From a phage, in NCBI GenBank assembly GCA_025829515.1, contig GCA_025829515.1_4865.1: 64,000 nt of DNA. One strand, written 5' to 3'. A program made the translations under genes and the position numbers. Within the stretch, counting starts at the first letter, position 1, and every line of letters starts with the position of its first letter. The notes beneath the pieces were generated by a model. That model was not told where the DNA came from, searched no databases, and saw only the letters and a program-made list of their open reading frames with translations. This document shows, piece by piece, positions 20,201 to 47,906 of this stretch.

Positions 20201-22448
20201 CCAGATTAAGTTCGTTGAGTGCGATGCTACGCATACTCACGAAATAGTCACCGGAGGTAAGCACAGTACGGAGCAGATAAACCCGCTCGTTGCAAACGAT
20301 CAAATCGTTTGTTGATGGATCAGCAACCCATGGAGCGGTTGTAATCACACCGGCCGCGTTACCATTTCGGTAATCGCCCAACTGAACTTTAACAACACGA
20401 TGATGTTTTGCATGGTCAATGGTTCCGTCAAAGATGACCAGGTAGTACGCACCGTCACTGCCTAAGCAGATCATTGCATCTGTACCGGTAATCACAATAG
20501 CAACCAGATTCACCCCAGGATACGCCGACATTCCAGCGGGGTGATAACGTACGGACGTCTGCTGCATATTTTCCAGCGTATTGCTTGGCGACACATCAGC
20601 ATAGGCGTAATAGATAGCCCAGTCACCTGGTGGATTCCCGTTAGAACCGTTACGGAGCGAGTAAACCTTACCAGACTCGTAACGCGCCAAACCTTTCTGC
20701 CAGGTTTGGTTTTTGGTATACCCTTCGTAGTTCCCCTGGACAGGTATAGGCAAGAAGTTATTGTTGCCGTACGATGATCCGCCGACAGTCCATGCGGGCA
20801 ACAGCGTAGCAATCTTGTCATTCAGTGTGTCAATCTTTTGTTCAAGCAAGAAGCCCTGACGCGAAGTGACCATCTTATCCGAGGTAGTGTCGATTGCATC
20901 CCACAGTTTAGCCAAACCTGTAACAGACGTGGATGCGTACGGCACGTTATCGAGATCTGCAATGGTGTGGGTGTGCGTTGTAAGCGCTTTGCCTGATAGC
21001 ACGGTGCGCAACGCATTAGTAACCGGTTTCTCCAGCGGCCCGGTATTGTTCATCTTCTCAATACCGAAATCTGCCGCGGTTAAGGTCAGATGCATCTGCC
21101 CGTTTGAATCTAATACAAACCCTTTACCATTGACTGTATACGTGTCGTCCACATATCCGTCGAGTTTGTTCTTCAAGTCAGTAACAGCTTTTTGGGAAAT
21201 CGCTGTGGACGCCGCAGCGGACGCCGAAAGGTTAGTAATCGCAAACAAACCCTGCACAGTTGTGGTTGCTGCAGGCAGCTCCGCATTCATGTAAACTTTG
21301 TTTGTTTCTTTACCAGAGCCGTAAATCTTCAACGTGTCGCTGGACTTGAAGTAGGCGTTTGCTGGAAGTATCTTCACCGAGGTCAAGTACATCTTAACCA
21401 TATCCGGTGTAACGAGATACACGCTGTTATACACAGGTGCAAGCACACCTGCATCATAAGCGCCCCACTTGTCACCTGCTTTACCCGAGTGAACCCAAAG
21501 CGTGTTCAGACCAGCACTGAACTCCGTAGCGATACCCGGTTCGTTGTTATCCTGGTCAGCTTTTAATACCAGCGGTTTTGTCGAGGTGATAATGAACTTC
21601 TCACCCTTCATGCTGATAACGTGACCAGACGTTGTTTGGAACGTAATCGCGTCGTTATTCAGAACACGCATACGGCCCAGTAAATCGCCCAGGGTATTAT
21701 CCAGAAGCATGTCAACGTGTTTCTGTTGGATGCCACTGGTAGACATTAACGTCACTAACTCTGCCAGTGTACGTCCAAACGCTTTAGTCGCATCCACGGC
21801 CTTACCGAGCACAGGGAGTGCGCCAATGTCACCGCAGGTGTAACCATGTGCATTTTTAATCAGGTGGTGTTGATACATTTCGTCATCAAACACCTGTTTA
21901 CCGTTCTGATAAATCAAATCGGTAACTTCGGCAAATGCCTCATCCAGTTCGTGGGCGCGCTCTAAAATGCCCAGACGGATATCTTCCAACGCCTTTACGA
22001 TTTCATCGCGAAGAATCGCTTCTTCGAGATCTTTTGGCGGGTCGATTGGCGAGATAATCGGTGGATATTTCATCAGCTCAGACCAATCGCAGTTGCGCGG
22101 GTCTTTCATATCCGTCTTAACCAGATACTTGCCGATTTCAGAAGCAGGGATGCGATACTGTCGACCAACCGACAACAACTCGTATTCTACCTCTGTGGCG
22201 TTCAGCAGCATTATGCTGCCGTATATTGCATCGTTCTCAGCCTCGGCTAATTCCTGGAAGTAATGTCCTAAGAAATAATCAAGACCTTCTATTAACTTGC
22301 GTTTGGTTCCGGTTGTTTTATCGGTAACGGTTAACGTTAACCCGATGCGATAGAACGGTGCTTCGACGGGAATGACCGTCGAATAACGGTTCGGGTAAGT
22401 AGCGGTACTGAGGGTACCGTTAAACTGCGCCGCATCTTCTCTCGGCAT
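17265..22448 (-). CDS. giant tail fiber / tailspike protein (about 1727 aa)
   Basis: Start chosen at ATG 22448 (AGGAGTG RBS; the track start is TTG at 22493). N-terminal APFYRIGLTLTV...GLDYFL anchor-like block shared with ORFs 22544, 26687 and 16015. Confidence 0.55.
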   Translation of the reverse strand: MPREDAAQFNGTLSTATYPNRYSTVIPVEAPFYRIGLTLTVTDKTTGTKRKLIEGLDYFLGHYFQELAEAENDAIYGSIMLLNATEVEYELLSVGRQYRIPASEIGKYLVKTDMKDPRNCDWSELMKYPPIISPIDPPKDLEEAILRDEIVKALEDIRLGILERAHELDEAFAEVTDLIYQNGKQVFDDEMYQHHLIKNAHGYTCGDIGALPVLGKAVDATKAFGRTLAELVTLMSTSGIQQKHVDMLLDNTLGDLLGRMRVLNNDAITFQTTSGHVISMKGEKFIITSTKPLVLKADQDNNEPGIATEFSAGLNTLWVHSGKAGDKWGAYDAGVLAPVYNSVYLVTPDMVKMYLTSVKILPANAYFKSSDTLKIYGSGKETNKVYMNAELPAATTTVQGLFAITNLSASAAASTAISQKAVTDLKNKLDGYVDDTYTVNGKGFVLDSNGQMHLTLTAADFGIEKMNNTGPLEKPVTNALRTVLSGKALTTHTHTIADLDNVPYASTSVTGLAKLWDAIDTTSDKMVTSRQGFLLEQKIDTLNDKIATLLPAWTVGGSSYGNNNFLPIPVQGNYEGYTKNQTWQKGLARYESGKVYSLRNGSNGNPPGDWAIYYAYADVSPSNTLENMQQTSVRYHPAGMSAYPGVNLVAIVITGTDAMICLGSDGAYYLVIFDGTIDHAKHHRVVKVQLGDYRNGNAAGVITTAPWVADPSTNDLIVCNERVYLLRTVLTSGDYFVSMRSIALNELNLGGSNTFVADVLTGGMLTSGDNIYLRQGQKRSDTDVLVAPVTQIYADASAKWNSARNFVHGPECNHAIAVDGLNFRVGLTPTVWFASTTGQTINFKQWVSSFVVDCGSMTVTLEGADRFPIVADLTTVRYNGGAEIGIPSRKWGEGQANNRTFATSQDKYIVSQGHANDRDLMPYVTITTLDDGVSWYEYLSCDYNFTARSFSAVMLNQGRGSIYELGMAYPLTLGANSRLIWLSQPRTRLAIEVEFDPNTTYSGKAGYGPTNNRRVVDSTTYENLSQMCHIVTPASPGTELNGWYCTGPETFPYHNVSGTFTIHADRLTLSQAEWDKMKQMIIDGAPAGAANGYASEFILAANNAGKALFSIWFIGIGTATPLTLAQVACMRTVNNVNVLDIYYFTLKPTISNGQVTFPAAILALFDFYNNLDYGLSYATLGEITGGKTRRPGQPTLVSVDGTQFGLYLPHTLTLRQIGDLGALNYGVGLTLSNGTWTRSSAPHGIGRMAPSHTPVSPAYLAHRDQVMLHNSSLDYVYCGGIAMSSSDFVAAPNFSGPTESVVIAGVETAEGWLVYVTEEVNLRFGSSTYKLPTWYIDLSAAFPTNHQNRTFYLHAKVENGTPKYVMDVIQHPDTETELYIGYVKTGSSRVVETNVEHAKRLGAVKQLLEHAAVENKHDVEVGRDAATGRLAPLRKEAMGPLSIDATKGYLDSQLLYTVSDAQRRGKAMVSKRFEGLKTLPAFTQANKSGAFWKHPTTIATVTADENSEATSLGMEWVGIPTPAFSPTSTNLMVVVQSKFVVPGTPGVETTFNVHVAPWEAVDGFFYNVEAEGTDVNIDENPEVLLPSPHTVHHKQHSLPAGVPCTFTFVAAVSSSALETANQHICSWLFTDAGGLPITTDLSDSKIQILPQPGETNGTPVVLNSRSYTFTNVTGAIPVVTTGAQGLFPPPIVAWDGDDLTLTIAHDWVNERGRQQPDIIQVNLMFRT

Positions 22449-22481
22449 TGCAAACACTCCTAATCTGTAATAAAACGGAGA

Positions 22482-22542
22482 CCGCCCTCCCAATAACGGA
22501 AGGGCGGTTTACCTACGGACTACCCGCCCGTAGGCAGTCCGT
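22482..22542 (-). promoter_or_regulatory. paired intergenic hairpins between the fibre genes (partial terminator / RNA processing candidate)
   Basis: CCGCCCT...AGGGCGG and ACGGACT...AGTCCGT stems (with alternative CCTACGG/CCGTAGG pairing); in the minus sense they are followed by a U-rich tract just before the RBS of gene 22448. Confidence 0.35.
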
Positions 22543-22543
22543 C

Positions 22544-25500
22544 CTAAGAGGCCCACTCACCCGAGTTGTTGCCTTCGTTTCTACGTTCAGTATCCAACGT
22601 TTGTAAAATCCAATCCCATGTCCTGGTGGGGATGTGGAATGGATTACGCTTCTCAATGAGAATCGTCTCGCCACCCGTGCGAAGTTCCACCGGTGTCGTT
22701 TCAGTAATCACGAACATCGGATTACCACTACTGCCCACGCCATTAATAGTGAACTTCGCTTGCAGCGGCGGCACAGAACCTTCCGGAGGCACGAACACGA
22801 TGTGAATTGGCTGCATCGGTTTCGTGCGGGCAAGTGTCCCAGATATCTGAACAGCTGTTGTCGATGCACTGAAAGGTATAACATTACCCGGAATTTTCTC
22901 ACTACCCACGATGATATATCCAGGGTAGTTAGAGAGCATTGTCCCATTTACCGACACAAAACGCTCATTTTGAGTTGGGCGATAAGCCCGCATAAAGCCG
23001 TACTTCCATTCACCACCGTTAGACGTATAGTCTGCAGGAGCCGACTCAAGTAGCGGAGCACCACGTTTCTGCAGCCCTTTGTAAAACGGCGCTGGGAGTT
23101 TACCGTTCGGTGCAAGTTCCGGATAACCCTCACTTGCAGCAGACATCGTGATGTATTCCGTAACCGGGTTATCGACGTTATCTCCAAAGTTCGCGAACGC
23201 GACGGTTGATATCGACATCTCCTCATGCCCAGAAGACTGGCTGTCCGGAGAACGCTCAATATACGACTCAAATAGCGAGCGTAGATAATGGAAACGATTT
23301 AAATCTACTTCTGTTGTGGAAGGGTCCATCAAACCGTGGTTGATAGTGACACCTTCACCAGTTTCGAGGCCAGTAACACTAATCGATAAAGCGCCGCCTT
23401 TAAAATAATCAATCGCGTCAAACGGAATGTCGTATTCTATCTCACGAACAGTCGCCGAAGCCTGCCCACCTATCTTACTAATCGACGATATTCGCAGTAT
23501 CTGCGTATCAACAATATAGCGATAACGAATAAGCCAGCGCGAACCAATGGCTGCGAACTCGCTAGCGATTGAAACCGGGAGATAGTCTAAACAGTCAGGC
23601 GACTGAACATCCACGCTCTTGATTACACGAGGAGCATCAACCAGCGTATTAGTAACGCTGGATTGTGTGCTGGCAATTCTTCCGGTTGGTTTATCGTACG
23701 GCGCGGCAATAAAGCCACAATTTAAACTGGTCTTGGAGTTACTCCACCGCAGGACTCTGGTTTTACCTTTCTCATCAGCAGAAGGGGCCATGAAGTTTAA
23801 TGAAACTTCGACGTCCGAGGTTTTTGGGACTTCAGGATAATCAGTGTCGATTACCACCGAACCCTCGAATGTCGCCATTCCGTTTTCTTTCGGGTTGCTT
23901 GGTGTAAACCAGCAATACGGGGACGCGTTTTCAGTAGAAACAACCGCCGCAAGAAGAATCCTGAGCGAGGTGGCACTTACGAATTTATAATCAAATAACC
24001 CACGGTCTAAACGAACGAGGTTATCCCCAGAAACAGACGGGTTAGTTGGATACGCGTACAGCCATTGTTTAGGTAACGGATCAACCTTATTCAACGGCAG
24101 CATTTTCGGGTTATCCGTCAATGACCAGTCGGTGTTACTCACCCCGTGTGCCAGACGTGTTTCGAAGTGCCGTTTAAGTTCGGACGCCATGCCAAAATCA
24201 AACGTCGTTTCAAACTCGTAAGTCGTGCCTGCAACCAATCCCGCGTCAGGGACATCGATGTGTCCGATATAGCCGCGTTCCAAGTTAATACCTTCCGTGT
24301 CCACAATAGGTTCGGCGCGCGAATATAACGCATCGGTTATCATGTTCACATAGAGGTAATGCCTTAAACCGTTCGGCGTCTTAACAAACTCCTGCAGGCG
24401 GGCAACTTTAGTGTTTTTATCCGAGGCCCCAACCGCAAAGTCACCGTCGTAAACTGTGAAACGAATTGCGGCTGCTTTAGCGCTATCGTTACACTCGGCA
24501 CGGAATGCTAAGCAATGTTGCTTCCACCCCTTCTTGACAGTCGCCTCCAGATACCCCGCTTCTGTAATACCCGCACCGATAATTTCACCGTCCAGATAAA
24601 CAGAAACAGCACCACCGCCACGAACCCAAATCCGCAGCTTACCAGAGTCGCAACGAACCCATGTTTTCGCCAAGAGGTTAACGACCGACAAATCACCCAT
24701 TCCGGTTGTCGTTAAACCAATCTGCGCACCGTAGTTCGTTTCCGGGACGGCAACCTCAAACCCACTAAAATCAATACCGGCACCGGTATTGATTACCGCG
24801 TTCTGCCACGTTCTTTCCATACGGTTATCTGGAGAGAACCACTGGAACATCGGCGTGGTTTGCAGGTCTATCGAACCAGATACCGTCCCCTCTTTACGTG
24901 CACCATTTAACAGATAGAAATAATTCAAATCCGTTACGGCGAGTGTGGTACGTGTAGATCCCACAGTCCAAGTCTTGCCGCGCACCGCGGCAAAATCGGT
25001 CACGGAGTCCTCTTTCGCGTTTGCTAGCGCAGCTGCAACTACGTCTAAACGTTTTGACAAATCGTTCAGAACGTTTGGGGTAACGCCGCGATTATCCGAC
25101 AAGCCATTTAGGTTGGTAGAATATCGAGCGATACCGGGCACTGTTTGAGAAGCCGTTGGGATCTGTAAATCGGCGAAGTTGTGATGGTGGCCTTTATCAC
25201 TAAGACCAGTAACTGCTTCTGCCAACGCATCAGAAAGTGGTTTATCGACGTCAGCTGTGTTATCAGCCAAGTCCAGACCCAAATCCTTTTTCGTTAGCGT
25301 TCGGCTACCAGTGTCCATCGGCTGGTTATTCAGCAGCGTTGTCTTCCTGACGTACGAAGACAGATCACCCTCGTACGGTAAGAGCGAAGCTGGGGTGGCT
25401 GCTTGTCCCTTGACTACATCGCTCGGCTTATCAGTCAGCGTCACAACGCCGGGTTCAGAGGTCGTCGCGGGTTTGGCTGTGACCTTCCCGGTGACGGGAT

Positions 25501-26674
25501 CGGCTTTTGACCCTTTACCCGTGAAAGTAATGCCGTTCACCCCGCTAATGTACAGTTTGTTGTCATCCGGGTCAACGGTACCACCGCCGGTACCAGGGTC
25601 TTGTTGATAGCCCATGAGAGCAGTTGTGGTCAGTAACGTCGTACCATTAAGCGTCAGCTTATCCATCCCCAAGGCACTGCCAGTCGACTCAATACGTAAT
25701 GTATTGATGCCTGCTTTCCACTCCATAAACCGGACGGTTCCAGTAGTGTCGGCATACCCACACGCCAACACAACAGAGCCATTAGATTTAAGAGTGAATG
25801 CCTCAGCAGAGAACACAATTTCGGATTCACCAGCAGGAGAACGGAACAGGGCACGAGTACCGGATATCGTCGCATTAAACACCCCTCTGGATTCTTTCGA
25901 TACCCATTTAGAAATGTACTTGTCGATATCCGATTGTTGCAGACCCAGTGCACGGACCTCGCTGGTTAACTGACGCAACGTCTTTCCATACGCCAGGAAA
26001 GTATCTGGCGTTTTCAGGTTGACAGGATGCGCACCGGCCTGCGCCGCGGTAGTCCCATGAGGGTTAGTCGACGCAATGTGTCCGGGGTAGTTAAATGTGG
26101 CGATTTCAGTTCCTAAGCCCAAAACCGCATCTTTCAGCTCAGTAAGCTTTTCACGAATCTGCTCGTTGGCCGCCCCGGCATCTAACTCCACATCATGCAC
26201 TGCAGAGGCAACATACTTTTTATTCAGCATGTCTGACCAAGCTACCGCTGCAGGGGTGGCTGGGTACAGGGAAGGTCGATTACCTAAAAGCAGCCAATCT
26301 GCAGCCGTTGGATTGTTGAGTGCCTTAATTAGCTCATCCAACATCTCAATCAAACCACTGTAAAACGTACCCCCGAGCATCTGGCCTTCAAAGACCACCG
26401 CACCACGCAGTTTAGGGTTAATAAGATGCACCCCGCAAAACACCGGGGTCGTCACCGAGTCGTCCAACGGTGTTAAAGCATACTCCAGCTCATAGTCCGT
26501 CCCGCGGGTAAGCGGTATGGACGAGCCGGCGAGCCTTACCACCAATCCTTCGAAAAACGGGCGATGATCTAGCATCACCACCCGATCGTTAGGATTGTCG
26601 GAGTCGATGATACGTTCCTCGATGAAGTGACACTCGGGATTCACACCCCGAGGATCGTAAGGATACGTTTTCAT
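22544..26674 (-). CDS. giant tail fiber / tailspike protein (1376 aa)
   Basis: ATG with AAGGAGA RBS; N-terminal RPFFEGLVVRL...GTDYELEYA anchor-like block shared with the other fibre genes. Confidence 0.55.
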   Translation of the reverse strand: MKTYPYDPRGVNPECHFIEERIIDSDNPNDRVVMLDHRPFFEGLVVRLAGSSIPLTRGTDYELEYALTPLDDSVTTPVFCGVHLINPKLRGAVVFEGQMLGGTFYSGLIEMLDELIKALNNPTAADWLLLGNRPSLYPATPAAVAWSDMLNKKYVASAVHDVELDAGAANEQIREKLTELKDAVLGLGTEIATFNYPGHIASTNPHGTTAAQAGAHPVNLKTPDTFLAYGKTLRQLTSEVRALGLQQSDIDKYISKWVSKESRGVFNATISGTRALFRSPAGESEIVFSAEAFTLKSNGSVVLACGYADTTGTVRFMEWKAGINTLRIESTGSALGMDKLTLNGTTLLTTTALMGYQQDPGTGGGTVDPDDNKLYISGVNGITFTGKGSKADPVTGKVTAKPATTSEPGVVTLTDKPSDVVKGQAATPASLLPYEGDLSSYVRKTTLLNNQPMDTGSRTLTKKDLGLDLADNTADVDKPLSDALAEAVTGLSDKGHHHNFADLQIPTASQTVPGIARYSTNLNGLSDNRGVTPNVLNDLSKRLDVVAAALANAKEDSVTDFAAVRGKTWTVGSTRTTLAVTDLNYFYLLNGARKEGTVSGSIDLQTTPMFQWFSPDNRMERTWQNAVINTGAGIDFSGFEVAVPETNYGAQIGLTTTGMGDLSVVNLLAKTWVRCDSGKLRIWVRGGGAVSVYLDGEIIGAGITEAGYLEATVKKGWKQHCLAFRAECNDSAKAAAIRFTVYDGDFAVGASDKNTKVARLQEFVKTPNGLRHYLYVNMITDALYSRAEPIVDTEGINLERGYIGHIDVPDAGLVAGTTYEFETTFDFGMASELKRHFETRLAHGVSNTDWSLTDNPKMLPLNKVDPLPKQWLYAYPTNPSVSGDNLVRLDRGLFDYKFVSATSLRILLAAVVSTENASPYCWFTPSNPKENGMATFEGSVVIDTDYPEVPKTSDVEVSLNFMAPSADEKGKTRVLRWSNSKTSLNCGFIAAPYDKPTGRIASTQSSVTNTLVDAPRVIKSVDVQSPDCLDYLPVSIASEFAAIGSRWLIRYRYIVDTQILRISSISKIGGQASATVREIEYDIPFDAIDYFKGGALSISVTGLETGEGVTINHGLMDPSTTEVDLNRFHYLRSLFESYIERSPDSQSSGHEEMSISTVAFANFGDNVDNPVTEYITMSAASEGYPELAPNGKLPAPFYKGLQKRGAPLLESAPADYTSNGGEWKYGFMRAYRPTQNERFVSVNGTMLSNYPGYIIVGSEKIPGNVIPFSASTTAVQISGTLARTKPMQPIHIVFVPPEGSVPPLQAKFTINGVGSSGNPMFVITETTPVELRTGGETILIEKRNPFHIPTRTWDWILQTLDTERRNEGNNSGEWAS

Positions 26675-26686
26675 TCAAAAATCTCC

Positions 26687-29600
26687 TTAATCACGAATAA
26701 TAAGTGTTCGAGCTGACGTGTTTTTCGGATTGAACGTCATCATCTTGGATGGGTGTGCCGCCAGTGGAATTTTACCTGCATCCACTGGTCGGAACGAACT
26801 GTATGAATAGTTGCACATCGCGCTGTTCATCTCATTAATCGTTGAACCTGCATCCACCACGCCAGTAAAGAATCTTGCGCGGTTTAAGCCGGAATAGTTA
26901 ATCGCATAGTCAAGGAACGTGGCGTAATAACGATTCTTTGTCGGCATCGTGTTCAGGTTAGCGTAAGTCAAACGCGCTTCTGTGTCGGAACTAAACAAAC
27001 CACCCACGCCGTGATAAATCGGCGTACTCGGATCGGTAATCAGTTTCGTCAAGTCGATATAGTCAGGACGGAGACGGGTAGACAAATCCTCAGTCCACGA
27101 CTCGCCGGTCGACTGCAAGGTGTATTTCAGCGTCTTTGTTGTCGCGGTTAGCGTCAGCTCAAAGTTGATCGTTTTAGAATCGATGTTAATCGTTCCCACG
27201 AACGAAATACCGTCCGCTGTTCGCGCGTGGCTGAAACGCACCGATGGATTAAGTGCCGTCCAGTCATGGCCGGAACCAGTAACGCCGTTCAAGCCAATAA
27301 CAACCTGTGCAGCACGTCCGTAGTTAACCGCGATTCCCGCATACGTGCTCACGCCGCCTGGAGTGGTAATACGCCCTGCGGTGCGTGCGACGAGTACAGA
27401 AATACGGTGCATGAACGTGGCCGAGTGATGGCAACACCCAATTACCGTTTCTAGCACACTGTCCGCTGTTGCGGTTAAAGGTGTCCACGTTGCGGTAATG
27501 CCGTTATTCTGGAACATCGGGAATGTGTTGTGGACAAAACGATAGTCGGTTACAGATAAACTGGTTGTTTTAAACGTCCATTTATCAGCAGCCGGATCGT
27601 AGTCCGCTTTCAACATAGGCGTATAGCTGCTAGCCTGCGCGTAACGCCAATCGGCATCTATACGTTTTGTACCTGGTGCACCCGTGGACCACACAGGCCC
27701 GCCCGTACCGTAAGTAAATCCGAAATCAGCTTGCGTCATACCCCGACGAATATGGGCGTTATCATCCTCGATATGCTCGCCTAATTCACGGAACTCACCT
27801 AAACGCGTCACGTTGCGGATTTCTACAAAAACCACACCGGTTTCACTGGTGATGATGGAACCTATTTTGGTCATCGTCTCAGTTTCTGCCGTGTTTGGAT
27901 TTTCGTAGATAATGTACTTGCCGTCATCGCCCGCCGCGTCAACATACACGCCAAACTCAGCATCTTCGTGCGTCGCTGGGAATAGCTCCGCCAAGTTAAA
28001 TGTGGAGAGAGGTACTTTGTACTCGCGACCAACGAAATAATCGTTCGCTTTAATAGTAACCATCCAGTCGGTGTAAGTGATGCCGTTTTCAATGGTATCC
28101 GTGCCGGGTAAACCGTAACGAATAATGTTGATTGAAGCACCAGAGTCGACTGTCTTCGCAACCTTCTCTATCTCTGTGATAGCGTCCGCCTGTCGGATGA
28201 CCTCACCGCCGTCTAATGCCAGCGTGGCATCGTCAACCGCGGTGCCGAACTGTACTAAACCGAACTCCGTCGTTGTTGCACGCTTAATCCCGAGCGCAGC
28301 AGGAGCGTGTGTGTGACCGACGACTGCATACTTGTCCAGCTCAGCTCGTTGGAGCGGGGAAATCGGCAATTGCACGTCTGGGATGTTCTGTACGTTCGAT
28401 AAGCCGAAGTTAGTTTTATCGATGTAAATAGAACTCGTCAGTGGCATGTCGTTGATGTACGATTTAACGGCAACCAACTTGCCCGTAAACTGCTGATCCA
28501 ATTTCTTGATGAGTGCCGGCGTTGCGGCCAAGTCCTCACGATCACCGAATTCAGTAGCCAACAAACGGACAGCCATCAGGCCAAGGTCGTCGGACTCCGG
28601 TGGAACAAAAGTACAAATGAACGGAACAGACTGAATACCGTTGCCGTTAATGGTTACAGTAGCTGTGGATGTTCCGTAAAACAGTCCATCACCACCTGAC
28701 TCGTTACCCGGCAGGTACGGTCCGACCGTAGTAGGGTCCAATAGTTTCTTACCGTTGAACTCCAATCCACGGGAATCCGGATAAAGGATGAGTTGGTTAG
28801 CCCCACCTTGCCATGTAATCGGGTTATTCCCGGCGTTAACGGTTTGCGAATCGCGGCCAATAAAACGGATAACCCTCGGGTCAACCGTGAATTGTGCACC
28901 CACGCCTTCAGACTCATCGGTACCCACTGCTGACGTTATCGAAGTCAGGCCAGGCTTCATACCGAAAGTGCCGTTGATAGACTGTGCAGCCGCCGGTAAA
29001 CGTAAAAGCTTATTCGCCAGCGTTGACAGTTTCGGCAACAGATTGTTAACGTAATCTGTCAGCTGCGGTTGCGTTTTTCCGTATACCAGTGTCGCGTCCG
29101 AAGCAATACCGTTATTCTCCAAAGCACGGATTGCGCCCCACGAATCGCGATGTGGGTTATCCTTGCGCGGCACGTGCGTATGTGCTGGTGCATCACGGTA
29201 CAGCTTATCGACAATCTGGTGATATTTTACCAGCAGCTGGTACACGTCGTTGTTAACGTCAGGTGCCGGTGCGCCTGGTAATGAACGAATCTGGACGTAA
29301 TCGTTCTCACCTGCCCACCAGTTTAGGTTGACGCCCGATTTAAACTTCAACCATTTTGCGACATCAGTTTTCTGATACCCTGGTGCAAATTCGCTCGGTG
29401 GGTTGTCAACGTTAAAGCTGTAGTTAACGGTTTGCTTGCTTGTTTTAACGGTAATGTCGTAAACGCCGTTACCTTCGCGTCTGACCACGCTAAGCTCAAT
29501 ATCACCCGCCAACTCGGTATCGGTCAGGCCAGTCGTCAACGTATAGCTGTAATTAGACGAACCAGAACCAATCGCCGTCGTTAAGGTAAGATAAATCGCG

Positions 29601-30400
29601 CGTTGCTTCAACTGAAGACGCAGGATACTTGTCCCACCGTTTGCGTAACAGAGCATCCAATCGATCAACTCGCCTGGGTTCAACGTTGTTTCCGGTGGAA
29701 TGCTCGGTAAACGGTATTTTGCCGCTAACGAATACGCACCGAACGTCGTGTTCTGGTAAGATAACGAATAACGACGACGCGACGCGTTATACGTGTAGCC
29801 GCCAGTACCGTCGTACGTCGCATACTGCTCGGATGTGATAAGCGTGACACCGGCGCGATATTGAAGGTCTAACGTGTTACGAGCAATCGGGTCAACGCGA
29901 CTGATCGCTTCACCGAGCTTAGCACCAACCGCAACAATGGCTTCCATCAACTCGGATTCGCCACGCCAGTTTTCCCAGTCGAACTTAATATCGACCGGTG
30001 GGAAATATAAATCCCCAATGACGTTATCCCATTGGCAGTCTACGGGATAGCGATCTTTATTCGCTTCTCGTTCTGCGGCGATCATTTCTGCAGTGGCTTC
30101 ACCGATGCCAATTGCGTGGTAATCGAGTGTAAAGCCACTCTGATATTTCGGGTTGGTAATCCACACACCGCCGTGACAAACATGGCCAGTGCGTGCCATG
30201 CCCGTAACGTATGCATGGGTGATGACGTAATCATCACCTAATGTTAATTTCTTGCCGCCACTCTTGACCACCAGGGATGTGGTATAAAAGGGGGCGTGTG
30301 CGGGGAACAGCATCCGGTACTTAGTACCGATCGGCGTTACCGCTTCACCGGTCTGCATATTCCCCGGTTCTTGATAGTGCGGGTCAGGGACGACAGCCAT
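26687..30400 (-). CDS. giant tail fiber / tailspike protein (1237 aa), first gene of the minus-strand structural operon
   Basis: ATG with GGAGTG RBS; N-terminal APFYTTSLVV...GDDYVITHAY anchor-like block. Confidence 0.55.
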   Translation of the reverse strand: MAVVPDPHYQEPGNMQTGEAVTPIGTKYRMLFPAHAPFYTTSLVVKSGGKKLTLGDDYVITHAYVTGMARTGHVCHGGVWITNPKYQSGFTLDYHAIGIGEATAEMIAAEREANKDRYPVDCQWDNVIGDLYFPPVDIKFDWENWRGESELMEAIVAVGAKLGEAISRVDPIARNTLDLQYRAGVTLITSEQYATYDGTGGYTYNASRRRYSLSYQNTTFGAYSLAAKYRLPSIPPETTLNPGELIDWMLCYANGGTSILRLQLKQRAIYLTLTTAIGSGSSNYSYTLTTGLTDTELAGDIELSVVRREGNGVYDITVKTSKQTVNYSFNVDNPPSEFAPGYQKTDVAKWLKFKSGVNLNWWAGENDYVQIRSLPGAPAPDVNNDVYQLLVKYHQIVDKLYRDAPAHTHVPRKDNPHRDSWGAIRALENNGIASDATLVYGKTQPQLTDYVNNLLPKLSTLANKLLRLPAAAQSINGTFGMKPGLTSITSAVGTDESEGVGAQFTVDPRVIRFIGRDSQTVNAGNNPITWQGGANQLILYPDSRGLEFNGKKLLDPTTVGPYLPGNESGGDGLFYGTSTATVTINGNGIQSVPFICTFVPPESDDLGLMAVRLLATEFGDREDLAATPALIKKLDQQFTGKLVAVKSYINDMPLTSSIYIDKTNFGLSNVQNIPDVQLPISPLQRAELDKYAVVGHTHAPAALGIKRATTTEFGLVQFGTAVDDATLALDGGEVIRQADAITEIEKVAKTVDSGASINIIRYGLPGTDTIENGITYTDWMVTIKANDYFVGREYKVPLSTFNLAELFPATHEDAEFGVYVDAAGDDGKYIIYENPNTAETETMTKIGSIITSETGVVFVEIRNVTRLGEFRELGEHIEDDNAHIRRGMTQADFGFTYGTGGPVWSTGAPGTKRIDADWRYAQASSYTPMLKADYDPAADKWTFKTTSLSVTDYRFVHNTFPMFQNNGITATWTPLTATADSVLETVIGCCHHSATFMHRISVLVARTAGRITTPGGVSTYAGIAVNYGRAAQVVIGLNGVTGSGHDWTALNPSVRFSHARTADGISFVGTINIDSKTINFELTLTATTKTLKYTLQSTGESWTEDLSTRLRPDYIDLTKLITDPSTPIYHGVGGLFSSDTEARLTYANLNTMPTKNRYYATFLDYAINYSGLNRARFFTGVVDAGSTINEMNSAMCNYSYSSFRPVDAGKIPLAAHPSKMMTFNPKNTSARTLIIRD

Positions 30401-43839: not shown

Positions 43840-44118
43840 GTGGGAGAAACGTCATGTAACAGTGAAACAGTCTCTGATCCCGTGGTCGTGGGTTCAGGGG
43901 CGGCCGAGCCAACCCGGCGTATCGTTCTTTCGGGCGTGGGGATGGCTATAGGGTCTTCAAAGAACCTTCTAGCAGACATCGCGGAAGTCTGCGGGCCGGA
44001 TGATTTTGCAGTTTCACGTACAGTCGGGGAAGACTGGCGTGGTAATCAGAAGCGCCATGAGCGAATGTGGCGACGGAAGGTTACCTCAGCATCGCAGCGT
44101 TTTCAACGACGTTGTTGA
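43840..44118 (+). CDS. hypothetical protein (92 aa)
   Basis: GTG start with AGGAGGG RBS. Confidence 0.35.
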   Translation: MGETSCNSETVSDPVVVGSGAAEPTRRIVLSGVGMAIGSSKNLLADIAEVCGPDDFAVSRTVGEDWRGNQKRHERMWRRKVTSASQRFQRRC

Positions 44119-44237
44119 TCAAAGACACGGTTCCGATAGAGAACTGGTCTTTACCTGCAGCGGTATACACCGCTAAGCTTTACCGGTAAACTTAAGAAAA
44201 CACAAACGCAATTCTTCGTTACTCGCTTTCATCGCAG

Positions 44238-44753
44238 GTGAAAGCTCACTTAGGAATTCAGCTCATGGCCGAAATTGTCATTCTTTCCTCATCCTCAGAT
44301 TTAACGGAAGCACAAAATAAACAGCTGTTGGGGCTGCATTATAAATTTCTGAACCACCAACGTACCATACTCCATATCGAAAAAGGTGAGATTCCGAACC
44401 TCACTCTGGAGAAACTGTTGGCGGGGAACCGTGCCTGCGTTGCTCTGGAAGGGGGCACCCCTGTTGGTTACTGTTTGTATCGCGTAATCGCTGGGGTTCT
44501 GAAGATTCGTACGATGTTCGTGTCCGAAATGGCACGCCGTCGCAAAACGATGACGCAGATTTTTGATGCGCTTGATGTGAATGAGCAGTTCACCAGTGCG
44601 CATGGGGGAATATACGCTTGCCAGGAAGCTGGTATTGCGTTCTTTACCGCTCGCGGTTTTGACAAGACCGTCTCTACAGACGGACAATGGCTTGAATTTA
44701 AGAAGCAGGTTCCTGCGGAAGCAGATGAACCTTTAAGGACTGCGGTAGCATAG
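44238..44753 (+). CDS. hypothetical protein (up to 171 aa; an ATG at 44265 is an alternative start)
   Basis: ORF track; weak RBS; no confident motif (an acetyltransferase-like fold was considered but is not supported). Confidence 0.4.
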   Translation: MKAHLGIQLMAEIVILSSSSDLTEAQNKQLLGLHYKFLNHQRTILHIEKGEIPNLTLEKLLAGNRACVALEGGTPVGYCLYRVIAGVLKIRTMFVSEMARRRKTMTQIFDALDVNEQFTSAHGGIYACQEAGIAFFTARGFDKTVSTDGQWLEFKKQVPAEADEPLRTAVA

Positions 44754-44823
44754 TCCTGTTTTAGCACTCCTTACGATTATGCCTCACTATGAGTGGGGTA
44801 TTTTTACGCGAGGAGTGCTATTT

Positions 44824-45042
44824 ATGTTTCACCGTCCTGGGTTTTCAGCTTTAAACACCGATGTCTGTTGGGCTGAGTACGAGCGGGTGAAGGAGTTCTT
44901 ACCCGTAAATCCTAAACACATCAACGTGGGTACTATCGGGCGTGTTGCGTTCGATGATACTCCGCTGAGTACGTGTATTAAAGCAGCGCTTGGTACGCTG
45001 CCTGAGCCTCACCACCACGACTGGGAGGCAACTTTACCCTAA
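44824..45042 (+). CDS. hypothetical small protein (about 72 aa)
   Basis: Start chosen at ATG 44824 with GAGGAG RBS; that RBS can pair with an upstream complement (see findings). Confidence 0.3.
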   Translation: MFHRPGFSALNTDVCWAEYERVKEFLPVNPKHINVGTIGRVAFDDTPLSTCIKAALGTLPEPHHHDWEATLP

Positions 45043-45053
45043 GGAGCATTAAA

Positions 45054-45476
45054 ATGGTTACCGCTATTCGCGAAACAAAATCACTATACGATCATTTATC
45101 AGAAGAAGAAACAGCCTTATTCTACGACCTGTTACCTGAAACCAAAGCAAACGTTCAGTGGTGGTTACGTTTAGCGCTACGTGATAAAGTTGGGGAAACG
45201 CCGGTTAGTATTCTCGCGCACACGTTGGACATGACGCCCATGATTGAAATCGCGATTACCCGCCCTAAATTCTGGCGGCCTGGTATGGTGCGTGAGGCGT
45301 ATCTACTCCAACGCTTAGGTGTTGACCCGGAGAAGTGTTGGCGTAAGATGGACGACCATCGCTACCGTGAAGAAATTACGAATAGCCTCAACACTATGTT
45401 GGCAATGAAACGGCTCGGTATCGAACACGAAGGTTTCGAGTCAGCGGTAAAAGCCTGGGTGAAAAGGAATAGCTAA
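45054..45476 (+). CDS. hypothetical protein (140 aa)
   Basis: ATG with AAGGAG RBS. Confidence 0.45.
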   Translation: MVTAIRETKSLYDHLSEEETALFYDLLPETKANVQWWLRLALRDKVGETPVSILAHTLDMTPMIEIAITRPKFWRPGMVREAYLLQRLGVDPEKCWRKMDDHRYREEITNSLNTMLAMKRLGIEHEGFESAVKAWVKRNS

Positions 45477-45725
45477 ATGCAAAAAACAATCATCGGAATA
45501 ACGGTTGGTTCTTTCTGTGGCTTCCCTACCCCACAAACAGAACCCCAATATTTGGGCGCAGGCAAACCTGACCCGGAAGTCCGTAAGTTGCGCGAAGAAG
45601 CAAAAGCCAGAGTTCTTACTGAGCTGGAATCGTTGCTTCAGTCTCCGGTTATTTCACAATGGGGTATGGCAATAGATGTCACTCGAACTGATCGACGAGG
45701 CCGTTATCTCCCACGACTTGTTTAA
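45477..45725 (+). CDS. hypothetical small protein (82 aa)
   Basis: TAAATG stop/start junction with AAAGGAA RBS; its 3' end overlaps the next gene by 50 nt. Confidence 0.3.
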   Translation: MQKTIIGITVGSFCGFPTPQTEPQYLGAGKPDPEVRKLREEAKARVLTELESLLQSPVISQWGMAIDVTRTDRRGRYLPRLV

Positions 45726-46176
45726 CGCGCCTGAGCGCTTCAAGGTCGTTACAGTTAACTGCGTTGGTGCAATGGGAAGGGGCATTGCCTTGGCGTGCCG
45801 AGAACGCTTCCCATCGCTTTATAATGACTATCGCCAGAAATGCCGTAAAGAGCAAATCGTTATCGGTGAGGTCTATTGTTATCCTGAGGAAGGGGTAATA
45901 CTCCTTCCTACTAAAACCCATTTTCGCTATAAATCGCAGATTTACTATGTCACGTCCGGCATTGATGCGCTGGCGCGACTAGGGGAAGACTTAGAAGGAG
46001 GGATTGCGATACCACCCCTAGGGATGGCTAACGGTTGGTTACGTTACCATGAGCGATTGGAAATCTTTATACACTTACAGAAACGACTACAGCACACGGA
46101 GCAGACTTATCGATTCTATTTACCGGACACCTTGCTGAGGGAAGCAGAGAAAATCATCCCAAATAGTTTCAAATAG
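45676..46176 (+). CDS. macro-domain-like protein (putative ADP-ribose binding / processing), 166 aa
   Basis: VNCVGAMGRGIA (compare macro-domain NAAN..L..GGGV.GAI) and IAIPPLGMANGW (compare IAFPAISTGVYG) match the two hallmark macro-domain motifs by eye. Confidence 0.45.
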   Translation: MSLELIDEAVISHDLFNAPERFKVVTVNCVGAMGRGIALACRERFPSLYNDYRQKCRKEQIVIGEVYCYPEEGVILLPTKTHFRYKSQIYYVTSGIDALARLGEDLEGGIAIPPLGMANGWLRYHERLEIFIHLQKRLQHTEQTYRFYLPDTLLREAEKIIPNSFK

Positions 46177-46186
46177 ATATTATCAT
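46174..46186 (+). promoter_or_regulatory. recurring AGATATTATC element (copy A)
   Basis: TAGATATTATCAT overlapping the stop of gene 45676; upstream of gene 46276. Confidence 0.3.
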
Positions 46187-46275
46187 CAGGGCACATTACA
46201 AAGGAGCACAATGCCGTCCGCGCCGTCTTCCCGGATTGGGAACGGAAAAGTATAAATCCGTTTGGAGATACATCC

Positions 46276-46998
46276 ATGTTTCGCACCATTTTATTTCTTC
46301 TGGTAGCAATGACTACGTTCAACAGCAACGCTTCTTACCAGACCACCAGTAACAAACACCAAAAAGAATTCGTCCTTATCCAGGACCAGTTCAATGAGAT
46401 TAAACCTCTCATCGTCACCGCATCTCGAAAACAAGGCGTACATGCCGGGATGCTCGCGACCACCATTTATCGTGAATCCCGTTTTAATAAAAACGTGGGT
46501 AAGAATAAATCGAGCAGTGCTAGTAGTGTTGTCCAAATGACGACAGGCACTAAACGCTCCATGATACGTCTGTATGGGAAACAACTTAACATCCCAAAGA
46601 ATGCGGACCTTAATAAACCGAAGTATGCTGTACAGCTTGCTGCCGTTTACATGAAACACATCGAGGATCATCTGACAAAACAACTCAAACGCAAGCCGAG
46701 CACAGCCGAAATCGCTTTAGGCTACCGCTTCGGTGAGGGTGCTGCTGTTGCGATGATTAAAAAGAAATCACCGGTCGGGAAACGCTGGATGGCCAGCTAC
46801 CGAAAAGACGCAGCATTCTACGGTGCGAAAATGACACCACCGAAAGCTGAAACACGTCAGCTTGCTTTTGCGAAGGAAGACCGCGACCAACGCGTCGCTG
46901 AGCTTCAGAAAATCTGGGATACGCTGTACACCAAAATATCACCTGCGGCCGGTACATTACTGGCAAATAACACTATCATGAAAGGAGCATTGCTTTGA
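46276..46998 (+). CDS. secreted lytic transglycosylase-like (SLT-domain) protein, 240 aa
   Basis: Signal peptide MFRTILFLLVAMTTFNSNA; RESRFN (catalytic E-S), VVQMT (compare GLMQ) and LGYRFGEGAA (compare AYNAG) resemble the SLT domain motif order. Confidence 0.4.
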   Translation: MFRTILFLLVAMTTFNSNASYQTTSNKHQKEFVLIQDQFNEIKPLIVTASRKQGVHAGMLATTIYRESRFNKNVGKNKSSSASSVVQMTTGTKRSMIRLYGKQLNIPKNADLNKPKYAVQLAAVYMKHIEDHLTKQLKRKPSTAEIALGYRFGEGAAVAMIKKKSPVGKRWMASYRKDAAFYGAKMTPPKAETRQLAFAKEDRDQRVAELQKIWDTLYTKISPAAGTLLANNTIMKGALL

Positions 46999-47588
46999 CA
47001 CTCGTAACACGCCCCTGGTATCCAGGTCTTAAAACAGCCGCACAAATCACCGCCAAAGACGTTTACGAACTGATTCGCGCGGGTGCGGAACACGTTCAAA
47101 CCAATCCGAACTACGTTGAGCGTCCTATCGGTGAAGTCGATGGGGAAGCTGTCGAAGCACCTGTCTACGTTGAGTACGGCGAATGGTTCGCAGAGAACCA
47201 CGGTTTCTACGACGCGTTAAACGCGGCGTTTGGTGATGACGAAGACGAAGGTATCGAATTCGACTGGAACGTTAATCTGGCGCTGATGTGGATTTGTGGT
47301 TTACGTCCAGCAATTAACGAAACCGAAGCAGGCTTCGTGCTGACGTGGCGACAGTCGGCGGGTTACGATAAAGAACTCGACTTCAAACAGGCGTATATGG
47401 ATGTGTCGATTGCACTGCAGAAACTGTTCTTCGGCGATCGTGCTTTCTGCCAGCTCAGCTGGTTGACCATCCTGGAAAAACTGGCAACGTGCCACAAACT
47501 GTGGCGAGCAGAAGATGCCCCAGAACATCTTTTCGTGCTCGAATATGCAGTGGTACCGAACCAGCCGTTCTTTGAGGCCGAAGCGTAA
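46995..47588 (+). CDS. hypothetical acidic protein (197 aa)
   Basis: ORF track; start overlaps the upstream stop; followed by a terminator. Confidence 0.45.
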   Translation: MTLVTRPWYPGLKTAAQITAKDVYELIRAGAEHVQTNPNYVERPIGEVDGEAVEAPVYVEYGEWFAENHGFYDALNAAFGDDEDEGIEFDWNVNLALMWICGLRPAINETEAGFVLTWRQSAGYDKELDFKQAYMDVSIALQKLFFGDRAFCQLSWLTILEKLATCHKLWRAEDAPEHLFVLEYAVVPNQPFFEAEA

Positions 47589-47639: not shown

Positions 47640-47906
47640 GTGTTCGTGAAACGTTTAATAAATTTTCTCTACTGGATGGAGAAACGCTATAGCCACAACA
47701 TTCCGATGATGTATAGTTTGTTATTCTCCACGGTAATGTTGGTAATCGGTGCGATCGTCGCACATCTGATGGAACTCACGTCCCCATGGGCGCAACTCTT
47801 TCTTACCATCTGGATGTTGTTCTCAGGCTACCACATACGTGGTTTCATAACCCGATTCTTTCGCTGGCGGAGTACCTGGCACGTCTTTAATTCCGACCGT
47901 AACTAG
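47640..47906 (+). CDS. small membrane protein (88 aa)
   Basis: Two hydrophobic helices (LLFSTVMLVIGAIVAHLM; LFLTIWMLFSGY). Confidence 0.4.
   Translation: MFVKRLINFLYWMEKRYSHNIPMMYSLLFSTVMLVIGAIVAHLMELTSPWAQLFLTIWMLFSGYHIRGFITRFFRWRSTWHVFNSDRN

What the first reader, a model, noticed from the sequence alone, without database searches (positions are those of the whole stretch)
45676..46176. Macro-domain-like protein: possible reversal of ADP-ribosylation
The two hallmark macro-domain motifs appear in the correct order. Phage macro domains could remove ADP-ribose marks placed by host defence toxins or process O-acetyl-ADP-ribose, so this is a candidate counter-defence gene.
Basis: partly seen in the sequence, partly recalled or inferred. 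Interest (0 to 1): 0.4.

Follow-up and report, generated by a model that had tools for sequence, protein, structure and literature searches.

The report
Jumbo-phage anti-DarT macrodomain (AdfM)
This gene in an SPN3US-like Salmonella jumbo phage encodes a stand-alone copy of the enzyme domain that bacteria use to strip ADP-ribose off DNA, and it belongs to a phage counter-defence family (AdfM) that was described experimentally in 2026, so the call is correct but already known.

Summary
The ORF at 45676-46176 (+), 166 aa, is real and is a macrodomain. The generic Pfam Macro profile falls just short of its cut-off (21.7 against 22 bits). DarG-specific evidence is strong: NCBIfam antitoxin_DarG 1e-30, PADLOC DarG 4e-32, solved DarG macrodomains 2e-20 and 9e-19, and an AlphaFold model (pLDDT 94) whose best PDB matches are the DarG macrodomains, followed by TARG1. 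The two residues whose mutation most impaired Thermus aquaticus DarG (N22, K80) are invariant here (N28, K80).

The window is 99% identical to SPN3US-like (Seoulvirus) jumbo phages, which encode a chimallin homologue. The protein is the syntenic orthologue (70% identity over its full length) of Erwinia phage Asesino gp217. It is 35% identical to PhiKZ gp104. Morgan et al. (Cell Rep 2026) named both proteins AdfM. PhiKZ AdfM removes DarT2-made ADP-ribose from thymine in ssDNA and protects the phage from DarTG2. There is no DarT-binding domain and no DarT gene nearby, so this is an orphan antitoxin mimic.

Activity of this protein is inferred, not shown. Its clade carries an untested G-to-W change in the ADP-ribose-binding loop.

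The parts
45676..46176 (+). AdfM-like stand-alone DarG2-type macrodomain gene (166 aa plus stop). It corresponds to SPN3US ACQ60_gp070 and is the orthologue of Asesino gp217.
   Evidence: ORF listing and sequence. DarG profile and PDB matches. 100% identical to the protein in SPFM16, SPFM19 and SPLA1a. 70% identical over all 166 aa to Asesino gp217. Model pLDDT 94; best fold match is the DarG macrodomain.
45751..45789 (+). Motif 1, T26-V-N28-C-V-G-A-M-G-R-G-I-A38: first ADP-ribose-binding loop. It includes N28, equivalent to T. aquaticus DarG N22 and PhiKZ AdfM N23.
   Evidence: T26, N28, G31, M33, G34, G36 and A38 are invariant in 58 homologues. They align with Taq and Mtb DarG and with PhiKZ gp104. 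N22A in Taq DarG and mutation of the conserved catalytic-site asparagine in PhiKZ AdfM (the construct listed as gp104 N23A) both reduce activity (PMC5179494; PMC13309987).
45907..45915 (+). P78-T79-K80. [quoted passage not shown]
   Evidence: T79 and K80 are invariant in alignments A1 and A2. K80A inactivates Taq DarG and abolishes rescue from DarT (PMC5179494).
46012..46041 (+). Motif 2, P113-P-L-G116-M-A-N119-G120-W121-L122: second binding loop, which closes over ADP-ribose in Taq DarG (residues 117-122). W121 replaces Taq G122 and is specific to this clade.
   Evidence: G116 and G120 are invariant; P113, P114 and L115 are nearly invariant. W121 occurs in 39 of 58 homologues, including all 37 of the closest (33% identity or more). 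Most of the more distant homologues have G (15 of 58), as do Taq DarG, Mtb DarG and PhiKZ AdfM.

Best explanation
The gene encodes an orphan antitoxin mimic of the AdfM family. It is a stand-alone DarG2-type macrodomain that hydrolyses the ADP-ribose which the host toxin DarT2 attaches to thymine in single-stranded phage DNA (TNTC motifs). This would keep phage DNA replication and packaging going in Salmonella or E. coli strains that carry a DarTG2 system. The proposed mechanism follows DarG and TARG1. The two glycine-rich loops hold ADP-ribose, N28 positions the modified nucleotide, and K80 attacks the ribose C1'' to release the base. The phage is an SPN3US-like, chimallin-encoding phage, so the protein is expected to be imported into the phage nucleus, as its Asesino orthologue is. 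Shown here: the ORF, the DarG2-type sequence and predicted fold, conservation of the catalytic residues, absence of a DarT-binding domain or a DarT neighbour, and orthology with a named AdfM. Inferred: hydrolase activity, thymine-ADPr specificity, nuclear localisation and protection from DarTG2.
For: The only NCBIfam and PADLOC matches are DarG, at 1e-30 and 4.3e-32, and they cover just the macro half of those models (7-150 of 338 and 7-147 of 329). The best PDB sequence matches are the Mtb and Taq DarG macrodomains and the Thermosipho DarTG fusion. The AlphaFold model has pLDDT 94.0 and pTM 0.90. Foldseek ranks 1-4 are DarG structures (5m3e, TM 0.78/0.84, rmsd 2.0), followed by TARG1. N28 and K80 are invariant in 58 homologues and align with Taq N22 and K80, the two most damaging mutations in Taq DarG. 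The window is 99% identical to Seoulvirus phages, and SPN3US has a chimallin homologue, gp244 (PMC9365700). The protein is 70% identical, without gaps, to Asesino gp217 in the same gene order: SMC-like, GNAT, macro, SLT transglycosylase. Asesino gp217 is one of the proteins named AdfM and shown to localise to the phage nucleus. PhiKZ AdfM, 35% identical with E = 3e-25, removes DarT2-made ADP-ribose from DNA, rescues DarT2 toxicity, and is required for growth on DarTG2 hosts (PMC13309987). The macrodomain alone is sufficient as an antitoxin for Taq DarT (PMC5179494). None of eight neighbouring ORFs matches a DarT family in Pfam. DarTG exists in E. coli (EPEC; abstract of PMC7003065).
Against: No enzymatic or genetic test exists for this protein or for any member of its clade. 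For Asesino gp217 only localisation was reported. The tested enzyme, PhiKZ gp104, is only about 35-37% identical. That is no closer than the bacterial DarG2 macrodomains (37-38%), and it sits in an unrelated gene neighbourhood. The clade carries W121 where Taq DarG has G122, in the loop that closes on ADP-ribose. It also has A118 where Taq has G119 (G119E lowers Taq activity), although the active PhiKZ AdfM has Ala at that position too. I could not confirm that SPN3US is listed in the paper's Figure S1, because no supplement is held. I did not survey how common DarTG2 is in Salmonella.
Confidence: 0.8

Rival explanations
1. It reverses ADP-ribosylation of a different substrate. Candidates are uracil-linked ADP-ribose on RNA, protein Glu/Asp-ADP-ribose as for TARG1, or marks made by another host or phage ADP-ribosyltransferase. 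It would use the same lysine-based chemistry.
For: TARG1-type macrodomains are promiscuous. Taq DarG, SCO6735 and TARG1 also remove ADP-ribose from uracil in RNA and from dU in DNA (PMC13036486). TARG1 is the next-best structural match after DarG. The clade-specific W121 and the F83-for-W83 change sit at or near the ligand pocket. The protein is no closer to the validated PhiKZ AdfM than to bacterial DarG2 macrodomains.
Against: Every specific profile hit is DarG. Taq DarG is less efficient on U-ADPr than on T-ADPr. The orthologue was classified as AdfM, and the AdfM proteins tested counter DarT2 specifically. No ADP-ribosyltransferase gene was seen among the neighbours.
Confidence: 0.12
2. 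It is a small-molecule enzyme of NAD metabolism: an ADP-ribose-1''-phosphate phosphatase (Poa1p-like, as in the 'phosphatase' and 'Appr-1-p processing' annotations) or an O-acetyl-ADP-ribose deacetylase (MacroD/YmdB-like).
For: PHROG 335 is labelled 'phosphatase'. Several GenBank records call the orthologues phosphatase or Appr-1-p processing protein. There are weak Poa1p matches in PDB (E = 0.05-0.13, residues 21-59 only).
Against: The Poa1p matches cover only the first loop, and Poa1p ranks 26th or lower by fold (TM 0.63). No YmdB or MacroD family appears in NCBIfam. The invariant PTK lysine is the DarG/TARG1 catalytic feature. The labels are historical names for the superfamily and do not reflect tested functions.
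Confidence: 0.05
3. It is a non-catalytic ADP-ribose binder, for example a sponge for ADP-ribose-derived immune signals, or a reader that recruits other factors to modified DNA.
For: Macrodomains can be binding modules. The W121 substitution in the closing loop could in principle alter turnover.
Against: The catalytic N28 and K80 are invariant across 58 homologues, which argues for a retained enzyme. The related PhiKZ AdfM is catalytic.
Confidence: 0.03

Closest known systems
AdfM (anti-DarT factor macro) of chimalliviruses: PhiKZ gp104, PhiPA3 gp108, Goslar gp83, Asesino gp217 (Morgan et al., Cell Rep 2026, PMC13309987)
   Same: It is a stand-alone DarG2-like macrodomain of about 160-190 aa encoded by a chimallin-encoding jumbo phage. 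The catalytic Asn and Lys are conserved and there is no DarT partner. It is 70% identical to and syntenic with Asesino gp217, 35% identical to PhiKZ gp104 and about 31-35% to Goslar gp83.
   Different: This protein has not been tested itself. Its clade (Seoulvirus, Erskinevirus and relatives) has W121 in the second binding loop where PhiKZ has G. It falls below the Pfam Macro cut-off, whereas PhiKZ and Goslar pass. Its gene neighbourhood is unrelated to those of PhiKZ, Goslar and Moabite.
DarG2 antitoxin of the DarTG2 toxin-antitoxin system (T. aquaticus, M. tuberculosis; PDB 5M31, 5M3E, 5M3I)
   Same: It has the same macrodomain fold (TM 0.78/0.84) and 37-38% identity over the core. It shares the N22/K80 equivalents and both loops.
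   Different: It lacks the C-terminal DarT-binding domain: only positions 7-150 of the 338-position NCBIfam model are matched, at 107 bits against a 250-bit equivalog cut-off. It is not in an operon with DarT and is encoded by a virulent phage.
TARG1 / C6orf130 (human terminal ADP-ribose glycohydrolase; PDB 4J5Q/4J5S)
   Same: It belongs to the same macrodomain subclass, with a catalytic lysine at the equivalent position. TARG1 is the next-best fold match after DarG.
   Different: Identity is only about 16% in the structural alignment. TARG1 is a eukaryotic enzyme active on protein, T-ADPr and U-ADPr.
AdfN, orphan NADAR antitoxin-like enzymes of T4-like phages against DarTG1 (PMC11825919)
   Same: It uses the same strategy: the phage carries an orphan copy of the antitoxin's hydrolase domain to erase DarT marks from its DNA (abstract).
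   Different: AdfN has an unrelated fold (NADAR, not macro), a different base (guanine, DarT1) and a different phage group.

Membership tests
AdfM (chimallivirus anti-DarT factor macro) | DarG2-like macrodomain sequence and fold | tested here: met
   DarG profiles 1e-30 and 4e-32. PDB DarG 2e-20. Model pLDDT 94, with DarG macrodomains as top fold matches at TM 0.78/0.84.
AdfM (chimallivirus anti-DarT factor macro) | Conserved active-site Asn (PhiKZ N23 / Taq N22) and Lys (Taq K80) | tested here: met
   N28 and K80 are invariant in A1 (18 sequences, including PhiKZ gp104, Asesino gp217 and Taq and Mtb DarG) and in A2 (58 sequences). Residue roles come from PMC5179494 and PMC13309987.
AdfM (chimallivirus anti-DarT factor macro) | Orphan: no DarT-binding domain and no adjacent DarT toxin gene | tested here: met
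   The 166-aa protein matches only the macro half of the DarG models. The eight flanking ORFs give GNAT, SLT, a weak DUF4231 match or nothing in Pfam.
AdfM (chimallivirus anti-DarT factor macro) | Encoded by a nucleus-forming (chimallin-encoding) jumbo phage | tested here: met
   The 4-kb region around the gene is 97-99% identical to Seoulvirus genomes of about 240 kb, including SPN3US. SPN3US has a chimallin homologue, gp244 (PMC9365700). The chimallin gene itself was not looked for inside this 64-kb window.
AdfM (chimallivirus anti-DarT factor macro) | Orthology with a protein named AdfM by the authors | tested here: met
   70% identity over 166 of 166 aa without gaps to Asesino gp217 (YP_009290835.1), in the same gene order. 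That accession is listed as AdfM in the legend of Figure 1.
AdfM (chimallivirus anti-DarT factor macro) | Removes DarT2-made ADP-ribose from thymine in ssDNA and protects the phage from DarTG2 | not testable with these tools
   This needs a biochemical assay and phage genetics. It has been shown only for PhiKZ (and genetically for PhiPA3) AdfM.
AdfM (chimallivirus anti-DarT factor macro) | Import into the phage nucleus (PicA-dependent) | not testable with these tools
   Shown by GFP fusion for Asesino, PhiKZ and PhiPA3 AdfM. Import signals are surface features of the folded protein and are specific to each phage, so they cannot be predicted here.
DarG2 antitoxin (type II TA system DarTG2) | Full-length architecture, macrodomain plus C-terminal DarT-binding domain, reaching the NCBIfam equivalog cut-off | tested here: not met
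   107.2 bits against a 250-bit cut-off. Only model positions 7-150 of 338 are matched.
DarG2 antitoxin (type II TA system DarTG2) | Operon with a DarT2 toxin gene | tested here: not met
   No DarT-like family was found among the eight neighbouring ORFs.
MacroD/YmdB O-acetyl-ADP-ribose deacetylases and Poa1p-like Appr-1''-p phosphatases | Significant full-domain match to these subfamilies | tested here: not met
   No such NCBIfam family is hit. Poa1p gives E = 0.05-0.13 over residues 21-59 only and ranks 26th or lower by fold.

The most novel reading that the evidence does not exclude
The Seoulvirus/Erskinevirus-type AdfM clade may have shifted substrate range relative to PhiKZ AdfM and bacterial DarG2. 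The clade is marked by an invariant Trp in the ADP-ribose-closing loop (PPLGM[AV]NGW) and a conserved C-terminal segment (YLP...L..E), modelled here as a final strand and helix, that PhiKZ gp104 lacks. It might act on a different modified base, on RNA uracil-ADPr, or on a divergent enterobacterial DarT-like toxin. In that case it would not simply duplicate the published activity.
Probability: 0.1. Interest if true: 0.4.

Novelty: already known. Interest (0 to 1): 0.15.

Why it matters
The gene is a correct example of a phage carrying an orphan copy of a bacterial antitoxin's enzyme domain to erase a DNA-targeting defence mark. It also illustrates that nucleus-forming phages need enzymatic counter-defences in addition to their protein shell. 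That principle, and this family (AdfM), were published in April 2026, and a 70%-identical orthologue is named in that paper. The finding therefore adds no new concept. Two things remain of practical value. First, the SPN3US-like clade has not been tested biochemically and carries a clade-specific Trp in the binding loop. Second, the generic Pfam Macro profile misses this clade, so many database records still call it 'hypothetical protein' or 'phosphatase'.

Tried and rejected
- **DarT partner.** I looked for a DarT toxin or any ADP-ribosyltransferase next to the gene. Pfam and PHROG scans of eight flanking ORFs found none.
- **Conserved neighbour across genera.** I tested whether AdfM has a conserved neighbouring gene in different chimallivirus genera. 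Goslar gp082 also overlaps its macro gene by 50 nt, and Moabite has an acyltransferase overlapping its macro gene. All-against-all BLASTP of the neighbours from the window, Goslar, a PhiKZ-like phage and Moabite found no homology. The GNAT association is therefore coincidental.
- **Closer to PhiKZ AdfM than to bacterial DarG2?** It is not: 37% against 37-38% over the macro core. A single ancestral acquisition across chimalliviruses cannot be claimed from these data.
- **SPN3US in the AdfM paper's Figure S1.** No supplementary files are held, and 'SPN3US' does not occur in the main text.
- **LeRoux et al. 2022 (PMC9250638), for DarTG2 in E. coli.** The paper is not held.
- **Promoter and terminator scan of 44000-47200.** It gave only consensus-level matches close to shuffled expectation and nothing informative for the + strand unit.
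- **Whether the small upstream ORF is a known family.** Pfam and PHROGs gave no hit.

Full report
**Observation.**
The + strand carries an ORF from ATG 45676 to a TAG stop at 46174-46176, encoding 166 aa. It contains the two macrodomain loops in the correct order:
- TVN28CVGAMGRGIA (aa 26-38)
- PPLGMANGWL (aa 113-122)
- a PTK80 triad between them

The generic Pfam Macro profile gives E = 2.1e-4 and 21.7 bits. More specific evidence is unambiguous:

| Evidence | Result |
|---|---|
| PHROG 335 | 1.3e-29 |
| NCBIfam antitoxin_DarG | 1e-30 |
| PADLOC DarG | 4.3e-32 |
| M. tuberculosis DarG macrodomain (5m3i) | 1.9e-20 |
| T. aquaticus DarG macrodomain (5m31) | 8.7e-19 |
| Thermosipho DarTG fusion (7omu) | 2e-10 |

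**What the window is.**
The 4-kb region around the gene is 99.3% identical to Salmonella phages SPLA1a and SPFM2, 3, 4 and others. It is about 97% identical to SPN3US, all in genomes of about 240 kb of the genus Seoulvirus. In RefSeq SPN3US the gene is ACQ60_gp070, 'macro domain-containing protein'. Other records call it hypothetical protein, phosphatase or 'protein-ADP-ribosylation protein'. SPN3US encodes a diverged chimallin (gp244) and makes a chimallin-like lattice (PMC9365700). It therefore belongs to the nucleus-forming phages.

The rest of the window fits an SPN3US-like jumbo phage:
- paralogous giant virion proteins
- a radical-SAM protein
- an SbcC/SMC-like protein
- a ribonuclease
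- a UvsX-like recombinase

**Anatomy and conservation.**
A database search returned 78 homologues. In an alignment of 58 of them, these positions are invariant: T26, N28, G31, M33, G34, G36, A38, Y52, T79, K80, G116 and G120.

I also aligned the protein with PhiKZ gp104, Asesino gp217 and the crystallised parts of the Taq and Mtb DarG macrodomains. N28 matches Taq N22 (PhiKZ N23) and K80 matches Taq K80. In Taq DarG, K80A abolishes activity and antitoxin function, and N22A is the next most damaging mutation. K80 occupies the position of the catalytic lysine of TARG1 (PMC5179494).

An AlphaFold2 model built from the 58-sequence alignment is confident (mean pLDDT 94.0, pTM 0.90). Its Foldseek matches against PDB are:

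| Rank | Match | Score |
|---|---|---|
| 1-2 | Taq DarG macrodomain (5m3e, 5m31) | TM 0.78/0.84, rmsd 2.0 Å (5m3e) |
| 3 | Mtb DarG | – |
| 4 | Thermosipho DarTG | – |
| 5 | TARG1 | – |
| 8 onward | alphavirus macrodomains | – |
| 26 | Poa1p | TM 0.63 |

The protein matches only the macro half of the DarG profiles (model positions 7-150 of 338). It scores 107 bits against the 250-bit equivalog cut-off, so it lacks the DarT-binding domain. None of eight flanking ORFs is DarT-like. They comprise a GNAT acetyltransferase, an SLT transglycosylase with a signal-peptide-like N-terminus, a weak sub-threshold DUF4231 match, and proteins of unknown function. The gene is therefore an orphan DarG2-type macrodomain.

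**Comparison with what is known.**
A full-text search found Morgan et al., Cell Rep 2026 (PMC13309987). They report the following:
- PhiKZ gp104 is a DarG2-like macrodomain imported into the phage nucleus.
- It removes DarT2-made ADP-ribose from the second T of TNTC in ssDNA. Mutation of a conserved catalytic-site asparagine reduces this activity (the construct is listed as gp104 N23A).
- It rescues DarT2 toxicity in E. coli.
- It is required for PhiKZ and PhiPA3 to grow on hosts carrying DarTG2.

They name the family AdfM and find homologues in about half of chimalliviruses. Their Figure 1 lists Asesino gp217 (YP_009290835.1) as an AdfM, and its GFP fusion localises to the phage nucleus.

I fetched that Asesino region. 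gp217 is 166 aa and 70% identical to the window protein without a gap (E = 3e-90). It lies in the same gene order: SMC-like protein, GNAT acetyltransferase, macro, SLT transglycosylase, then exonuclease and ribonuclease.

A marine metagenome relative, 41% identical, keeps the order SMC-like, macro, one ORF, SLT, then exonuclease and RNase H. The gene is thus an old resident of this block in the SPN3US-like lineage.

PhiKZ gp104 is 35% identical (E = 3e-25). Over the macro core, the window protein is about equally distant from each of these:

| Compared protein | Identity over macro core |
|---|---|
| PhiKZ AdfM | 37% |
| Goslar AdfM | 35% |
| Taq DarG | 38% |
| Mtb DarG | 37% |

The neighbourhoods of the PhiKZ-like, Goslar and Moabite genes share nothing with this one.

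**Mechanism.**
The best-supported reading is an AdfM-type DNA ADP-ribosylglycohydrolase. Host DarT2, released on infection, ADP-ribosylates thymine in single-stranded phage DNA. The phage macrodomain binds the ADP-ribose through its two loops, N28 helps position the modified nucleotide, and K80 attacks C1'' to free the base. This restores replication and packaging.

The following are shown here:
- the ORF
- the DarG2-type sequence and predicted fold
- conservation of the catalytic residues
- orphan status
- orthology and synteny with a named AdfM

The following are inferred:
- enzymatic activity
- thymine specificity
- nuclear import
- protection from DarTG2

I put this at 0.8. The main reservations are these:
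- No member of the Seoulvirus/Erskinevirus clade has been assayed.
- The clade carries Trp at position 121, where Taq, Mtb and PhiKZ have Gly. This lies in the loop (Taq 117-122) that closes over ADP-ribose. W is present in 39 of 58 homologues, including all 37 of the closest, down to about 33% identity.
- A118 replaces Taq G119. The active PhiKZ enzyme also has Ala there.

**Rivals.**
- *Different substrate, same chemistry (0.12).* Candidates are RNA uracil-ADPr, protein ADPr or another toxin's mark. Taq DarG, SCO6735 and TARG1 also act on U-ADPr (PMC13036486).
- *Appr-1''-p phosphatase or OAADPr deacetylase (0.05).* This rests only on legacy labels and weak partial Poa1p matches.
- *Non-catalytic binder (0.03).* This is unlikely given the invariant N28 and K80.

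**Verdict.**
The family and its mechanism were published in April 2026 with a 70%-identical orthologue named explicitly, so this is already known. Interest is low (0.15).

The most novel reading still open is that the W121 clade has a shifted substrate range (probability about 0.1).

**Dead ends.**
- The AdfM paper's supplement and LeRoux 2022 are not held.
- There is no conserved AdfM neighbour across genera.
- The promoter and terminator scan was uninformative.

Noticed in passing
window 45477-45725 (+): An 82-aa ORF (SPN3US gp071) overlaps the start of the macro gene by 50 nt. It has no Pfam or PHROG family. A 43%-identical homologue (E about 1e-13) lies in the unannotated 246-nt gap before Asesino gp217 (L002, about 11460-11756) and overlaps that macro gene in the same way. 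Part of the similarity is the alternative frame of the conserved macro N-terminus. Goslar gp082 also overlaps its macro gene by 50 nt but is not homologous.
   Followed up: partly
window 44779-45053; L001 9031-9549: SPN3US and several relatives carry an extra gene of about 510 bp (gp073, 172 aa, no significant family) two genes upstream of the macro gene. It is absent from the window. The window ORF 44779-45042 shares its first part with SPN3US gp074 but has a different C-terminus. This is an indel polymorphism among Seoulviruses.
   Followed up: partly
window 46012-46041 (aa 113-122): There is a clade signature PPLGM[AV]NGW. Trp replaces the Gly found in Taq DarG, Mtb DarG and PhiKZ AdfM at the end of the ADP-ribose-closing loop. 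W is present in 39 of 58 homologues, including all 37 of the closest (down to about 33% identity). Its functional meaning is unknown.
   Followed up: partly
window 45676-46176; L002 11707-12204: The Pfam Macro profile misses this clade. The window protein scores 21.7 bits and Asesino gp217 19.2 bits against a gathering score of 22, while PhiKZ gp104 (30.1) and Goslar gp83 (24.1) pass. This probably explains why most GenBank records call the gene 'hypothetical protein'.
   Followed up: yes
phage records (e.g. EU330206 phiEco32, PQ850626 Bas90, MK795384 VAP7, ON014754 Pam2, MK620894 Kradal): DarG-like macrodomain homologues (about 30-35% identity, E 1e-5 to 1e-7) also occur in phages with much smaller genomes (about 67-190 kb), which are not expected to form a nucleus. 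These include the 77-kb phiEco32-like podophages. In Streptomyces and Arthrobacter phages the match lies under features annotated 'ADP-ribosyltransferase'. The AdfM-type strategy may therefore extend beyond chimalliviruses.
   Followed up: no
L006/L007 6001-6507 (marine metagenome contigs, up to 129 kb): A 41%-identical W-clade macrodomain sits directly after an 837-aa SMC-like gene and two genes before an SLT gene, with exonuclease and RNase H further on. This is the same block order as in the window and indicates SPN3US-like jumbo phages in the ocean.
   Followed up: partly
proteins P0001, P0014, P0016: Identical or 63-64%-identical copies are deposited as Salmonella enterica proteins on contigs of 79-243 kb. 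These are most likely jumbo-phage genomes carried along in bacterial isolate assemblies, not chromosomal genes.
   Followed up: no
records LR535904 (SPFM7), LR535912 (SPFM14) and proteins P0037-P0052: Several SPFM phage records match only in many short pieces or encode truncated versions of the macro protein (111-152 aa, 13-16% query coverage). This looks like frameshift or sequencing error in those assemblies, not real gene loss.
   Followed up: no
window 47640-47906 (+): An 88-aa hydrophobic ORF has a sub-threshold match to DUF4231 (21.4 bits against a 24.7 cut-off) and no PHROG family.
   Followed up: no
window 11752-13080 (-) and 17265-30400 (-): A radical-SAM domain protein (PHROG 1802, 1.9e-119) is present. 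There are also three consecutive giant paralogous virion structural proteins (1742, 1376 and 1237 aa) that cross-match each other's PHROG families.
   Followed up: no
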